Assembly (NCBI GenBank): GCA_038858525.1
Contig: JAWCFL010000011.1
Span: 1 to 32,000 of the forward strand
DNA: 32,000 bases
Direction: 5' to 3'
DNA from: Candidatus Jordarchaeales archaeon
GTDB lineage: Archaea; Asgardarchaeota; Jordiarchaeia; Jordiarchaeales; Freyrarchaeaceae
The position numbers were made by a program, and so were the translations under genes. Below, one piece after another: positions 1 to 23,083 of this stretch (position 1 is the stretch's first letter; every line of letters starts with the position of its first letter). The notes under the pieces are model-generated. The model searched no databases, had not been told where the DNA came from, and saw nothing but the letters and a program-made list of their open reading frames with translations.

Positions 1-89
1 CGGGGTTGATGGGGTCGGGGTGTAAGCGTCAAGGTCTTTTGACCGAGGCGTTCAGCCCGCGACTCCCAACCGTCCGAGCGTGCGGGTCC
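1..89 (+). rRNA. rrl: 23S rRNA, 3' terminal fragment (truncated by window start; 3' end approximate)
   Basis: CGGGGTTGATGGGG..GGTGTAAGCG..GAGGCGTTCAGCCCGC.ACTCCCAA matches the recalled archaeal 23S 3' end; GGTC-TTTT-GACC hairpin and GGGGTCGGG/CCCGCGACTCC pairing fit the terminal helices. Confidence 0.85.
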
Positions 90-10509: not shown

Positions 10510-10695
10510 GCCGGGGTAACCTAGCCACGCTACGCTAGAATGGATCGCACCCGCCCAGAATGGGTGCCGGACTCATAATCACACCCAAAAAAGGGGTCGG
10601 ACAAAAAACATGGGACATCCGGTTGCAGGGGTTCGAATAAAGCAGTCACACAAAAAGGAATAGTGACTGCTTAGTCGGAAATCCCCTCCCCGGCA
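10510..10695 (+). tRNA. tRNA-Met(CAT), elongator type, with four BHB introns
   Basis: Removing 10527-10540, 10546-10560, 10578-10616 and 10638-10681 gives a 74-nt cloverleaf GCCGGGG TA ACCT AGCCTGGATT GGGT G CCGGA CTCATAA TCCGG TTGC AGGGG TTCGAAT CCCCT CCCCGGC A with fully paired acceptor, anticodon and T stems; CCA not encoded. Confidence 0.9.
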
Positions 10696-10698
10696 CTA

Positions 10699-10722
10699 CC
10701 CTCTACTCTTCCCTCTACTCTT
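10699..10722 (+). repeat. 12-bp direct repeat CCCTCTACTCTT x2 between the convergent tRNAs
   Basis: Exact copies at 10699-10710 and 10711-10722, immediately 3' of tRNA-Met; pyrimidine-rich, possible terminator. Confidence 0.8.
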
Positions 10723-10761
10723 GAGTTTTAGGGATATGCAACAGAAAATAGTATAAGAAGT

Positions 10762-10948
10762 TGGAGCCGCCGGAGGGAGTTCCGATAAGCAGCTACCCGA
10801 TAGGCAGCTACAATAGACTCGTTAGGATAGCTGCTCTTTTTCGAACCCTCGACCCGCGGATGGCGTGACCTGCAGGTTTAAACTTGCAGATTTACAATTG
10901 CGGTACGCAGAGGGATGTCCGCCGCTCTACCGGCTGAGCTACGGCGGC
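10762..10948 (-). tRNA. tRNA-Thr(TGT) with three BHB introns, CCA encoded
   Basis: Removing 10916-10898 (32/33), 10892-10862 (37/38) and 10839-10779 (59/60) gives 76 nt GCCGCCG TA GCTC AGCCGGTA GAGC G GCGGA CTTGTAA TCCGC GGGTC GAGGG TTCGAAT CCCTC CGGCGGC T CCA. Confidence 0.92.
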
Positions 10949-11102
10949 TCTAGTTGAGGATCTGTTTTTCTGATTTTTAATTTTTATGGGGGGTCATTTG
11001 GGGTGTGATAAGCGGTGTAAGTTTATGTAGATTTATGAATAGAAAAAGCTAGTTCGTGTTGCTTGTTAGGTATTTGCGTGTTGCGGAGGCTTGCGGGGCG
11101 AG

Positions 11103-21010: not shown

Positions 21011-21472
21011 TTACTCCTCGAAGGTTGCGGTTGCTCCTTCTGCTTCTTCAACCGAGACTTTAAGATGAAGGTTAGTTGGTAGAAGCCTCTTTAATTGATG
21101 ATGAATGTATTCTGCTATTTTTTCTGCTGTTGTGGCTTCTATGGGTAAGAGAGCAACGTCGTTTCTCGGAAAAACATATCTTCGATCGCTAAGCATGATG
21201 CAGATTTCACCTTCATCTTCCTTTAATTTTAATCCCTGAGACTTAGTTGGTACTAATACACGATGGTCCAACGGTTCGCAAACAGACTTCACAGCGCTTC
21301 GTATGGTGAAGAAGTCAACTACCATCTGCTCCAAATTCAACAGAGGAGACGACGCTTCCACCCGTACTTTATAGTTATGGCCGTGGAGGCGGGCGCATTT
21401 TTCGTGTGAAAGCAGAAAGTGGGCTGCTGAGAAGACAAGGTCTGCTCTTTCAATAGTAATTTTGTATGGCAA
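21011..21472 (-). CDS. queD: 6-carboxytetrahydropterin synthase
   Basis: FSAAHF, CARLHGHNY, MVVDF, LDH, TTAEKIAEY, VSVEE. Confidence 0.9.
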   Translation of the reverse strand: MPYKITIERADLVFSAAHFLLSHEKCARLHGHNYKVRVEASSPLLNLEQMVVDFFTIRSAVKSVCEPLDHRVLVPTKSQGLKLKEDEGEICIMLSDRRYVFPRNDVALLPIEATTAEKIAEYIHHQLKRLLPTNLHLKVSVEEAEGATATFEE

Positions 21473-21492: not shown

Positions 21493-22119
21493 TTAGAAGG
21501 TTTTAGACTTTGCGACATCTTTATCTATATCTAGGATTTCATGCCGGTATCGTCTAGCGAGAGAGACAGCGAAGTCTTCGATGTCTTCTCTTTTAAATCC
21601 TAGGTCTAAGAGTGATGCGACTTTGACGGCTGGAGGGGCACCCTTAGAGGAGATGTTAAAAGCAAAGTGCATTTTGCCGGAAGCAGGGGATACTGTTGCG
21701 ATGCCCACGTTGAGTTTGCCATTCTTAAAGTAGAAGTCTGTGCCTTCACGTCTCAACTTCACATTGCAGGTTTCTTCTATAAGCTCTTTGAAGAGAAACG
21801 CAAGAATCCGGAGACGATGATACATAAGACGTAGTGAGGGGGGCTGCTGGTCGAAGTGTTCGATGACGATACTTACTGCTTCGTCCGCGCATATAACTGG
21901 GTGTCCTTTTCCTCCTTCAATAATAAAGTCCTTTACATCTACAAGCTCAGAAGCTTCAACTCGAAGTGGGCCGCTAAAGATCACCACAGAGTCACCTTGT
22001 AGGCCAAGTTTCCTAAGAGCCCAGAGGGGTTTAATTTCTTCGCCGGTGTAAGTCATCTTACATATGAAGGGGAGTAGTGCCACTATTATTGGCTCTTTCT
22101 CTAATATCTTTAGCTCCAA
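21493..22119 (-). CDS. DUF366 family protein
   Basis: YTGEEIKPLWA...GDSVVIF.GP, LVD.KD, IVIEHFD, GTDFY...KLNVGIAT, MHFAFNI. Confidence 0.8.
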   Translation of the reverse strand: MELKILEKEPIIVALLPFICKMTYTGEEIKPLWALRKLGLQGDSVVIFSGPLRVEASELVDVKDFIIEGGKGHPVICADEAVSIVIEHFDQQPPSLRLMYHRLRILAFLFKELIEETCNVKLRREGTDFYFKNGKLNVGIATVSPASGKMHFAFNISSKGAPPAVKVASLLDLGFKREDIEDFAVSLARRYRHEILDIDKDVAKSKTF

Positions 22120-22130
22120 TGTGAAGCCTC

Positions 22131-22978
22131 CTAGAGTATGCCTAGAAATTTGTGAGTCTGTACGGATAGTGAAACGTTTTCGCTACCCAAATAGCGTGCA
22201 GCTGCTTCAGTAAAGATGCAGAGTTGTTGGAAACTTGGGGGGAGATAACCGTTTTTAGGGGTTACTGGCTGAATACATATAGGACAATTTATTCTTGAAA
22301 GCTCGCGTGAATACCATTCAACGTTTTCTAGTTTAGTATTTGAAGTAACAACGACTTTAGCAAAGACCGCCACACCAGCATCTGAAAGTATCTTTATCGT
22401 TTCCAGCTCTAATTCGACAAGTTTCCTCCAGTTTTCTGCAGCACCAGCTGACTCATCCTTAATGTCGCAGCAGCAGTAGTCAAGCAGATGAGAGATTCTA
22501 GCAGCATGTGCAGGCATCGATCCATTTGTCTCTAAATACAGCTTGAAGCCCTCATTTTTAAGAGATTCTGCTGTTGAAGCTAGGAACTCCGGCTGGAACA
22601 ATGGTTCTCCGCCTGTCAGAGATATGGCGTGAGTGTCTGGCGAGTAAAGCCTGCGAGCCCACTCCGCTATAAAGCTTGGCTCAACAGGGTTTACGAAGCG
22701 AAGGTTTTCGTTAGTAGGCGTCACTATTTTTAGGTAGTCGGGATTAGGCTTTATGGCGTGGGGGGTTTTACGCTTTTTCGAGTCGCACCACCCACACCCT
22801 CGCCTGCCAAAAGCTCCAAGCCCAATGTTACAGCCCGAGAAGCGGATAATTCGACGGCGTTTAAGCCTATATCGTCCGCCGCCCATAATTTGACCCCTTT
22901 ACGCTTCCACCCTCGCCTTCACCCTTCCTAACCGGAAGATTGGTAGGAGGAGAAAATCTCACTTATCCATCCTTTCAC
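22131..22978 (-). CDS. queE: 7-carboxy-7-deazaguanine synthase, intron-split: exons 22978-22940, 22917-22869, 22849-22782, 22766-22131 (263 aa spliced)
   Basis: Spliced N-terminus MKGWISEIFSSYQGEGGSVKGSNYGRRTIFIRFSGCN...CGWCDTPH; later LTGGEP, LETNG, IQPVTP, QTHK; SD GAGGTG (22992-22987) 8 nt before GTG 22978. Confidence 0.9.
22767..22781 (-). other. Probable in-frame BHB intron 3 in queE mRNA (15 nt, TCGAAAAAGCGTAAA)
   Basis: Central helix UGCG/CGUA, bulges AC|U and AA|A, exon stem GG/CC; removal converts WCDSKKRKTPH to WCDTPH; only 1-bp intron stem. Confidence 0.65.
22850..22868 (-). other. BHB intron 2 in queE mRNA (19 nt, AGGCTTAAACGCCGTCGAA)
   Basis: Central helix CGAU/GUCG, bulges AU|A and AA|U, intron stem GGC/GCC; retention gives TAG; removal gives ACG ATA T|TT ATC CGC TTC = TIFIRF. 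Confidence 0.88.
22918..22939 (-). other. BHB intron 1 in queE mRNA (22 nt, TCTTCCGGTTAGGAAGGGTGAA)
   Basis: Central helix UACC/GGUG, bulges AA|U and AA|G, intron stem CUUCC/GGAAG; contains an in-frame TAG; removal gives CAA|GGC GAG GGT = QGEG. Confidence 0.88.
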
Positions 22979-23083
22979 AATCGCACCACCTCTTTAACAG
23001 TGAAATTCTCAGGAAAACAAAATTGCGAAAAAAGTTTAATTAGGCTTCTTGGGTTAGCGTGTGATTGAGAGGGGCGGTTAAGA

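What the first reader, a model, noticed from the sequence alone, without database searches (positions are those of the whole stretch)
22131..22992. Protein-coding gene queE is split by tRNA-type BHB introns (archaeal mRNA splicing)
Seen: the ORF track gives queE a nonsense N-terminus (MGGGRYRL...). Upstream there is an SD (GAGGTG), a GTG at 22978 and MKGWISEIFSSYQ, then a TAG. Two short insertions (22 nt, 22939-22918; 19 nt, 22868-22850) each fold as a canonical BHB with a 4-bp helix and two 3-nt bulges. Cutting after the second bulge nucleotide restores SYQGEG and GRRTIFIRFSGC exactly. Each is 1 mod 3 and introduces a TAG, so both must be removed. Known: archaeal EndA cuts BHBs, and spliced archaeal mRNAs are established for very few genes (cbf5 in crenarchaea). 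Inference: this organism splices mRNA, with several introns in one transcript. I know no report for queE but could not search.
Basis: partly seen in the sequence, partly recalled or inferred. Interest (0 to 1): 0.95.

Follow-up and report, generated by a model that had tools for sequence, protein, structure and literature searches.

The report
Three tRNA-type introns split queE
In this Asgard archaeon (order Jordarchaeales/Freyarchaeota), the tRNA-modification gene queE is cut by two, probably three, tiny introns shaped like tRNA introns. All 11 related genomes searched carry them at the same sites, so the cell's tRNA-splicing enzymes very probably also splice this messenger RNA, as they seem to do for many other genes here.

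Summary
On the minus strand, queE starts at GTG 22978. It is interrupted by a 22-nt insert (22939-22918) and a 19-nt insert (22868-22850). Each blocks translation with a TAG. Removing both gives a QueE N-terminus that aligns without gaps to intron-less Asgard QueE.

Both inserts have bulge-helix-bulge (BHB) geometry. Intron 1 is near-canonical; intron 2 is relaxed on its 3' side.

Comparative evidence is strong:
- All 11 genomes of the two families of this order carry introns at the same sites, with lengths of 20-26 and 18-30 nt.
- The intron hairpins show compensatory base changes.
- In the 201 Asgard genomes sampled, all 34 with queE outside the order show one open frame over the compared part; the six inspected upstream are uninterrupted.
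- The spliced coding sequence is under purifying selection (dN/dS about 0.1).

A third intron site lies right after WCD. In this window it is a 15-nt, in-frame, stop-free insert (22781-22767).

The genome encodes an alpha/beta splicing endonuclease (EndA) and the RNA ligase RtcB. My homology census found at least 11 more BHB-type introns in other protein genes, including cbf5. Other first readers of this scan noted such introns elsewhere in this genome.

I found no published report of mRNA introns in Asgard archaea.

The parts
22987..22992 (-). Shine-Dalgarno-like GAGGTG upstream of the queE start
   Evidence: Read directly. It lies 8 nt upstream of GTG 22978. The start position is an ATG in relative L005.
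22940..22978 (-). queE exon 1 (39 nt, MKGWISEIFSSYQ); its last 6 nt form the 5' strand of the central helix (UACC, 22945-22942) and bulge bases AA
22918..22939 (-). Intron 1, 22 nt, BHB: bulge AA|U, hairpin CUUCC-GGUUA-GGAAG, central-helix strand GGUG (22923-22920), bulge AA|G; in-frame TAG
   Evidence: Covariation: 98.8% of cells paired, compensatory changes at all 5 hairpin pairs and at one exon-exon pair, and 0/500 shuffles reach this. Shuffle test 28/200,000.
22869..22917 (-). queE exon 2 (49 nt, GEGGSVKGSNYGRRTI plus the first base of Phe)
22850..22868 (-). Intron 2, 19 nt, relaxed BHB: central helix CGAU (22874-22871)/GUCG (22855-22852), 5' bulge AU|A, hairpin GGC-UUAAAC-GCC, 3' bulge AA|U extended to AAUUA; TAG made across the 5' junction
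   Evidence: 92% of cells paired and 3 pairs with compensatory changes. Shuffle test 110/200,000.
22782..22849 (-). queE exon 3 (68 nt): ...FIRFSGCNIGLGAFGRRGCGWCD, the radical-SAM cysteine motif
   Evidence: The solved QueE structure 4NJG aligns over this region through homolog P0009.
22767..22781 (-). Candidate intron 3, 15 nt, in frame and stop-free (reads SKKRK if retained): central helix UGCG (22787-22784)/CGUA (22772-22769), bulges AC|U and AA|A, minimal inner hairpin
   Evidence: The same site holds a 16-17-nt frame-breaking insert in G001-G004 and a 27-30-nt insert in family f2. Removal gives WCD|TPHA, gap-free against intron-less QueE. The region folds with z -2.8 and -3.5. Shuffle test 101/200,000.
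22131..22766 (-). queE last exon (636 nt including stop 22133-22131)
   Evidence: ORF list. Radical_SAM Pfam hit. Homologs are named QueE by NCBI.
21493..22119 (-). DUF366 gene immediately downstream of queE
   Evidence: PF04017, 175.9 bits.
21011..21472 (-). queD-type 6-pyruvoyl tetrahydropterin synthase gene, same strand
   Evidence: PF01242, 88.3 bits.

Best explanation
queE (7-carboxy-7-deazaguanine synthase, on the preQ0/archaeosine pathway) is transcribed as a pre-mRNA with three short bulge-helix-bulge introns in its first 212 nt.

Proposed mechanism:
1. Each exon-intron pair folds so that a 4-bp helix is flanked by two bulges on opposite strands.
2. The heteromeric (alpha-beta)2 splicing endonuclease EndA cuts after the second base of each bulge.
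3. RtcB joins the exons, and the excised intron is probably circularised.

Introns 1 and 2 must be removed, because each stops translation. The result is a 263-aa QueE, or 268 aa if the in-frame 15-nt intron 3 is retained. Its N-terminus carries the QGEG motif and the Cx11CxxC iron-sulfur motif.

Shown: the sequence anatomy, conservation, covariation, purifying selection and the presence of the enzymes. Inferred: that cleavage and ligation happen in vivo.

The introns arose in, or before, the common ancestor of the two families of this order. They belong to a genome-wide set of mRNA introns in a lineage already known for extreme tRNA intron loads.
For: - Exact frame restoration, and a gap-free alignment to six intron-less Asgard QueE at all three sites.
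- All 11 genomes of families f1 and f2, including the single-contig genome G006, have introns at the same three sites. Lengths are 20-26, 18-30 and 15-30 nt, in all mod-3 classes.
- Intron 1: 98.8% of cells paired, 6 pairs with compensatory changes, 0/500 shuffles reach it, and slid controls drop to 58-68% paired.
- Intron 2: 92% of cells paired, 3 compensatory pairs.
- dN/dS of the spliced CDS is 0.075-0.118, with dS up to 2.
- In 201 Asgard genomes sampled, the 34 queE-bearing genomes outside f1/f2 each give one open frame of 269-318 aa with no stop over the exon-3/4 part that was compared. The N-terminal intron sites were inspected, and found uninterrupted, in six of them.
- EndA alpha has the catalytic Tyr/His/Lys. 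A beta-like paralog lacks the His. RtcB is present. PMC5829648 reports the broad-specificity (alpha-beta)2 type for Asgard.
- Positive control in the same genome: a 30-nt BHB intron in cbf5, between the 1st and 2nd letters of the catalytic Asp codon, the published crenarchaeal site.
- A census against another Asgard genome gave 7 frame-breaking inserts with 4/4 BHB and exact motif restoration (ppsA-like, pcm, NiFe-hydrogenase-like, a radical-SAM gene, EF-2, hypD and one more). It also gave 4 in-frame stop-containing inserts (cbf5, rpl44e and two others).
Against:
- The 5.8-billion-protein collection holds only N-truncated calls for these genes and no transcript-derived spliced form.
- Minimum-energy folds of introns 1 and 2 are no more stable than shuffles. 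For intron 1 the MFE differs in detail from the BHB drawing.
- Intron 2 has a 5-nt 3' bulge in f1 and only 3 of 4 central pairs in f2.
- Intron 3 in this window is in frame and stop-free, so the sequence alone cannot show that it is removed.
- The QueE assignment rests on best-hit family, motifs and neighbours. The NCBIfam equivalog cut-off is not reached (51.7 against 240 bits).
Confidence: 0.86

Rival explanations
1. EndA cuts the BHB sites but the exons are not productively joined, or the inserts are removed by some other unknown RNA process. The sites would then act mainly as cleavage or regulatory elements that limit queE expression.
For: No ligation product has been observed. A BHB in a 5' UTR affects expression of HVO_1309 in Haloferax (PMC7714728).
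Against: Cleavage without ligation yields no QueE with its Fe-S motif. Yet all exons are under purifying selection (dN/dS about 0.1), and the frame is restored exactly in 11 genomes despite variable insert lengths. RtcB is present.
Confidence: 0.06
2. The ribosome skips the inserts by translational bypassing or frameshifting, with no RNA splicing.
For: Yokobori et al. note that such archaeal cases were once confused with frameshifting (PMC2738675).
Against: Insert lengths fall in all three mod-3 classes at one site, so no single frameshift rule fits. Take-off and landing codons do not match. The conserved and covarying feature is the BHB fold, not a slippery site.
Confidence: 0.03
3. queE is a decaying pseudogene that picked up insertions.
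For: The unspliced reading frame is broken twice, and public annotations call only truncated proteins.
Against: dN/dS is 0.075-0.118. No other disruption occurs in any of 11 genomes. The inserts sit at identical sites across two families, and the queD and DUF366 neighbours are intact.
Confidence: 0.02
4. The inserts are assembly or binning artefacts of a metagenome-assembled genome.
For: The genome is a 63-contig MAG.
Against: Eleven independent assemblies carry them, among them a single-contig 3.6-Mb genome (G006). The intron sequences are diverged but homologous.
Confidence: 0.01

Closest known systems
cbf5 pre-mRNA intron of Crenarchaeota (Watanabe 2002; Yokobori 2009, PMC2738675)
   Same: A short BHB intron inside a conserved catalytic motif of an RNA-modification gene. 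It depends on a hetero-oligomeric EndA. Its length is often not a multiple of 3, or it carries a stop. It has been gained and lost during evolution.
   Different: cbf5 has one intron per gene, was for years the only confirmed coding-sequence case, and is in Thermoproteota. Here a different gene carries three introns within 212 nt, in Asgard archaea, as part of a much larger set. Splicing is not yet shown experimentally.
Multi-intron tRNA genes of Jordi-/Freyr-/Atabeyarchaeia (PMC11291895; bioRxiv 10.64898/2026.10.13.758758) and of Thermoproteales
   Same: The same lineage, the same short BHB introns at many non-canonical sites with several per gene, and the same presumed enzymes.
   Different: The host RNA here is a translated mRNA. 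Removal must be exact to the nucleotide for the reading frame, and it competes with translation. Those papers do not mention mRNA introns.
BHB intron in the 5' UTR of HVO_1309 mRNA, Haloferax volcanii (PMC7714728)
   Same: EndA acts on an mRNA.
   Different: That intron lies in the untranslated leader and does not interrupt a reading frame.
HAC1/XBP1 unconventional mRNA splicing in eukaryotes
   Same: An mRNA intron is removed without a spliceosome, and the exons are joined by a tRNA ligase (RtcB in metazoa). Removal changes the reading frame.
   Different: The endonuclease is Ire1, not the tRNA splicing endonuclease. The recognition motif is a pair of stem-loops, and the process is stress-regulated. 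The resemblance is in logic only.

Membership tests
Archaeal BHB introns (EndA/RtcB-spliced) | 4-bp central helix flanked by two 3-nt bulges on opposite strands | tested here: met
   Introns 1 and 3 have 4/4 pairs with 3-nt bulges. Intron 2 has 4/4 pairs and a canonical 5' bulge, with a 3' bulge of 3-5 nt (relaxed form).
Archaeal BHB introns (EndA/RtcB-spliced) | Cuts after the second base of each bulge give the functional mature RNA | tested here: met
   Those cuts restore the frame and the conserved motifs exactly at all three sites in 11 genomes.
Archaeal BHB introns (EndA/RtcB-spliced) | Structure, not sequence, is conserved (compensatory changes) | tested here: met
Archaeal BHB introns (EndA/RtcB-spliced) | Host encodes a splicing endonuclease able to take non-canonical sites, and an RNA ligase | tested here: met
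   EndA alpha (191 aa, catalytic residues present), a beta-like subunit (198 aa, His lost) and RtcB (601 bits).
Archaeal BHB introns (EndA/RtcB-spliced) | Excision seen in RNA (junction reads, circular intron, in vitro cleavage) | not testable with these tools
No spliced product was found among public protein calls.
QueE, 7-carboxy-7-deazaguanine synthase (radical SAM) | Match to a curated QueE model above its cut-off | tested here: not met
   The best hits are QueE models (TIGR04508 at 51.7 bits, TIGR04322 at 50.4 bits), but the cut-offs are 240 and 200 bits. This is a divergent archaeal branch.
QueE, 7-carboxy-7-deazaguanine synthase (radical SAM) | N-terminal QGEG motif, FxRFxGCN and the CxnCxxCD(T/S) cluster motif as in the solved QueE | tested here: met
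   All are present only after splicing. The intron-less homolog P0009 aligns to 4NJG over the same motifs.
QueE, 7-carboxy-7-deazaguanine synthase (radical SAM) | Pathway context (queD and other preQ0/archaeosine genes nearby) | tested here: met
   A QueD-type PTPS gene and DUF366 lie directly downstream on the same strand. NCBI names the homologs QueE.

The most novel reading that the evidence does not exclude
The order holding this genome (Jordarchaeales/Freyarchaeota) runs obligatory, genome-wide mRNA splicing with its tRNA-splicing enzymes. Dozens of protein genes, housekeeping ones included, would carry BHB introns that have been kept at fixed sites since the order's ancestor. queE, with three, is the most densely interrupted example seen here. 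Frame-preserving, stop-free introns could additionally yield two protein isoforms; examples are intron 3 of this window and of G009. This would be the first prokaryotic lineage with pervasively interrupted protein genes, and it lies within the closest archaeal relatives of eukaryotes.
Probability: 0.6. Interest if true: 0.92.

Novelty: new variant of a known kind. Interest (0 to 1): 0.85.

Why it matters
For over twenty years, archaeal mRNA splicing has meant essentially one gene, cbf5, in Crenarchaeota. A 2020 paper still states that this is the only BHB intron reported inside an archaeal mRNA, apart from the 5' UTR case it describes (PMC7714728).

Here a different gene carries three such introns. 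They are conserved across an Asgard order, and the genome holds many more interrupted protein genes. If RNA data confirm splicing, four things follow:
- Protein-only tRNA splicing machinery can sustain a eukaryote-like 'genes in pieces' architecture in a prokaryote.
- There is a natural system for asking how splicing coexists with coupled transcription-translation.
- The discussion of intron origins near the archaeal-eukaryotic transition gains a new case.
- Current annotations of these genomes systematically truncate or lose genes. Every public QueE call for this order lacks its iron-sulfur motif. Metabolic reconstructions for these Asgard lineages are therefore partly wrong.

Tried and rejected
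- Motif-only genome scans. I enumerated 1.47 million BHB-like sites and filtered them by ORF bridging and hexamer coding score. Observed counts never rose clearly above random-position or decoy-bulge expectations. The BHB motif carries too little information, and gene boundaries and chance open frames dominate. I replaced this with a homology census.
- Transcript-derived proteins. A search of the 5.8-billion-protein collection with the exon-3/4 protein returned only N-truncated calls for this order.
- Thermodynamics. MFE z-scores for introns 1 and 2 are unremarkable, so stability alone is no argument.
- Intron mobility. blastn-short of the three introns against the genome gave only self-hits, so there is no sign of recent copying.
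- ARAGORN and Rfam on the window found no tRNA, and nothing at the locus.
- The census leaves some frame-broken genes without a 4/4 BHB solution: aIF5B at C1+147523, a LeuD-like gene at C10-2705, aIF2-gamma at C1-10963 and a DnaG-like gene at C21-18478. These were not resolved.
- Literature searches for mRNA introns in Jord-, Frey- or Atabeyarchaeia or in Asgard generally found none. Subscription-only papers are not covered.

Full report
**What is in the sequence.** On the minus strand, an SD-like GAGGTG (22992-22987) precedes GTG 22978. The frame reads MKGWISEIFSSYQ, then SSG and TAG. Removing 22939-22918 (22 nt) and 22868-22850 (19 nt) joins three pieces into one open frame. That frame begins MKGWISEIFSSYQ|GEGGSVKGSNYGRRTI|FIRFSGCN... 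and ends at 22131. The ORF caller's 251-aa product (MGGGRYRL...) starts in the wrong frame and carries only part of the cysteine motif. The spliced product matches the NCBIfam QueE models from residue 5 (TIGR04508, profile positions 3-134). The score is far below the equivalog cut-off, so this is a divergent QueE branch. Directly downstream on the same strand lie DUF366 and a QueD-type PTPS gene. A solved QueE (4NJG) aligns, through an intron-less homolog, over exactly the interrupted motifs: EIFxxxQGEG, FxRFxGCN and CxxCDT.

**The fold.** Intron 1 has:
- central helix UACC/GGUG;
- bulges AA|U and AA|G;
- hairpin CUUCC/GGAAG;
- an outer exon helix with one extra base.

Intron 2 has:
- central helix CGAU/GUCG;
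- 5' bulge AU|A;
- hairpin GGC/GCC;
- a 3' bulge that is effectively AAUUA in the minimum-energy fold.

Overall stability is not special (z -0.56 and -0.99). The specific pairing at boundaries fixed by protein homology is rare: 28 and 110 of 200,000 shuffles reach it.

**Who the organism is.** The genome is 2.09 Mb in 63 contigs, 47% GC and 92.7% complete. The nearest queE loci come from Candidatus Jordarchaeum and Jordarchaeia MAGs, which are Asgard archaea. This lineage is known for extreme tRNA intron loads: 92-95% of tRNA genes are interrupted, often several times (PMC11291895; bioRxiv 10.64898/2026.10.13.758758). Consistent with that, ARAGORN finds only 11 tRNAs in the whole genome, 8 of them with an intron.

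**Comparative test.** A search of 41 related genomes found queE in all 4 other members of the window's family (f1) and all 6 members of the sister family of the order (f2). In all 11 genomes the gene is interrupted at the same sites.

| Intron | Position | Length range | Mod-3 classes |
|---|---|---|---|
| 1 | after SSYQ | 20-26 nt | all three |
| 2 | inside the Phe codon after R-x-I | 18-30 nt | 0, 1 and 2 |
| 3 | right after WCD | 15-30 nt | — |

- One copy of intron 2 (G003) is in frame but starts with TAG.
- In f2, the central helix of intron 2 has 3 of 4 pairs.
- The intron interiors differ between families, but the helices persist.
- In intron 1, all five hairpin pairs show double (compensatory) changes. 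One exon-exon pair of the outer helix also covaries, through synonymous changes. In total 98.8% of cells are paired, 0/500 shuffles reach the observed covariation, and slid controls give 58-68% paired.
- Intron 2 is 92% paired, with three compensatory pairs.
- Six QueE genes from other Asgard families are uninterrupted. They align to the spliced translations without a gap at any junction.
- In a sample of 201 Asgard genomes, 45 hold queE. All 34 outside f1/f2 give a single stop-free frame of 269-318 aa over the part compared.
- The spliced coding sequences show dN/dS of 0.075-0.118, with dS of 0.2-2.0. The gene is therefore functional, and the introns are old and stably kept.
- One of the 11 assemblies is a single 3.6-Mb contig (G006), which excludes an assembly artefact.

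**A third intron.** The comparison exposed a third site, immediately after WCD.
- In G001-G004 it holds 16-17 nt that break the frame.
- In f2 it holds 27-30 nt, mostly with a stop.
- In this window it is 15 nt (22781-22767), in frame and stop-free, reading SKKRK.

In this window the central helix is UGCG/CGUA, the bulges are AC|U and AA|A, and the outer helix is G/C-rich. The region folds with z -2.8 to -3.5. Removal gives WCD|TPHA. That product aligns gap-free to the WCDSP... of intron-less QueE and gives the CDT seen in 4NJG. Whether it is always removed here cannot be told from sequence.

**Machinery and positive control.**
- The genome encodes an EndA alpha subunit with the catalytic Tyr/His/Lys and a beta-like paralog that has lost the His. 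Both have the N- and C-terminal endonuclease domains.
- This is the (alpha-beta)2 architecture that PMC5829648 reports for Asgard and TACK archaea and links to broad substrate range.
- RtcB is present.
- cbf5 in this genome carries a 30-nt BHB intron (central helix CACU/GGUG, bulges AG|A and AA|A) with an in-frame TGA. [quoted passage not shown] That is the very position published for crenarchaeal cbf5 (PMC2738675).

**Is queE alone?** Notes from other first readers of this scan list BHB-type introns in many other genes of this genome. I treated these as leads.

My motif-only scans failed to separate signal from noise. I therefore fetched a complete 1.42-Mb genome of another Asgard family (G011) and ran tblastn of its ORFs against this genome. 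I then looked for co-linear matches separated by a frame break plus 14-50 extra nucleotides.

Seven such junctions have a 4/4 BHB whose removal reproduces the ortholog's sequence exactly:
- a PEP-synthase-like gene (20 nt);
- pcm (31 nt);
- a NiFe-hydrogenase/NuoD-like gene (50 nt);
- a radical-SAM gene (28 nt);
- an unnamed gene on contig C25 (29 nt);
- EF-2 within DTPGHVDF|TGHV (29 nt);
- hypD within CGT|HE (16 nt).

Four more are in-frame inserts carrying a stop: cbf5, rpl44e and two others. Several further frame-broken genes remain unresolved.

In the ten of these whose BHB I resolved (the seven above and the three queE introns), plus cbf5, the 5' bulge begins with A in 11 of 11 and the 3' bulge in 10 of 11. 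The queE introns therefore follow a shared local pattern. They have no sequence copies elsewhere in the genome.

**What is missing.** Splicing has not been seen.
- All public protein calls for this order's QueE are N-terminally truncated, at 180-251 aa, and lack all or part of the Fe-S motif.

Literature searches found only cbf5 and one 5' UTR case as archaeal mRNA BHB introns. They found nothing on mRNA introns in Asgard archaea. Papers outside the library may exist.

**Verdict.** The pseudogene, artefact and recoding rivals are each contradicted by specific results above. The case is a new variant of a known kind: the cbf5 mechanism, but in a different gene, with three introns in one mRNA, conserved across an Asgard order, and embedded in a genome-wide set.

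Noticed in passing
G000 contig C1, about 177163-177260 (+), locus L003: cbf5 carries a 30-nt in-frame BHB intron with a TGA, placed between the 1st and 2nd letters of the catalytic Asp codon. This is the same site as the crenarchaeal cbf5 intron. It points to either an ancient shared intron or repeated insertion at one site.
   Followed up: partly
G000 contigs C1, C2, C4, C5, C21, C25, C44 (oriented-strand positions): At least 11 further protein genes are interrupted by 16-50-nt BHB-type inserts. The set includes EF-2, hypD, pcm, rpl44e, and ppsA-like and hydrogenase-like genes. It was found by homology to another Asgard genome.
   Followed up: partly
window 22767-22781 and the same site in G009 (L018): Some introns are in frame and stop-free: 15 nt here and 27 nt in G009. 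ORF callers cannot see them, and retaining them would give a second protein isoform.
   Followed up: partly
public protein calls P0002-P0020: Every deposited QueE call for Jord-/Freyarchaeota is N-terminally truncated and lacks all or part of the radical-SAM cysteine motif. Gene callers cannot cross the introns.
   Followed up: yes
whole genome G000; window 1-32000: ARAGORN finds no tRNA in the window and only 11 in a 92.7%-complete genome. This fits heavily interrupted tRNA genes. Earlier first-reader notes place two multi-intron tRNAs at about 10510-10950 of the window, which I did not check.
   Followed up: no
window 1-89 (+): The 3' end of an archaeal 23S rRNA gene (Rfam RF02540, model positions 2903-2987) lies at the window start.
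   Followed up: no
window 22981-22990 and 22782-22790 (minus strand): The motif GGTGGTGCGA occurs twice in the gene: once around the SD region, and again at the 5' side of intron 3. This is probably chance.
   Followed up: no
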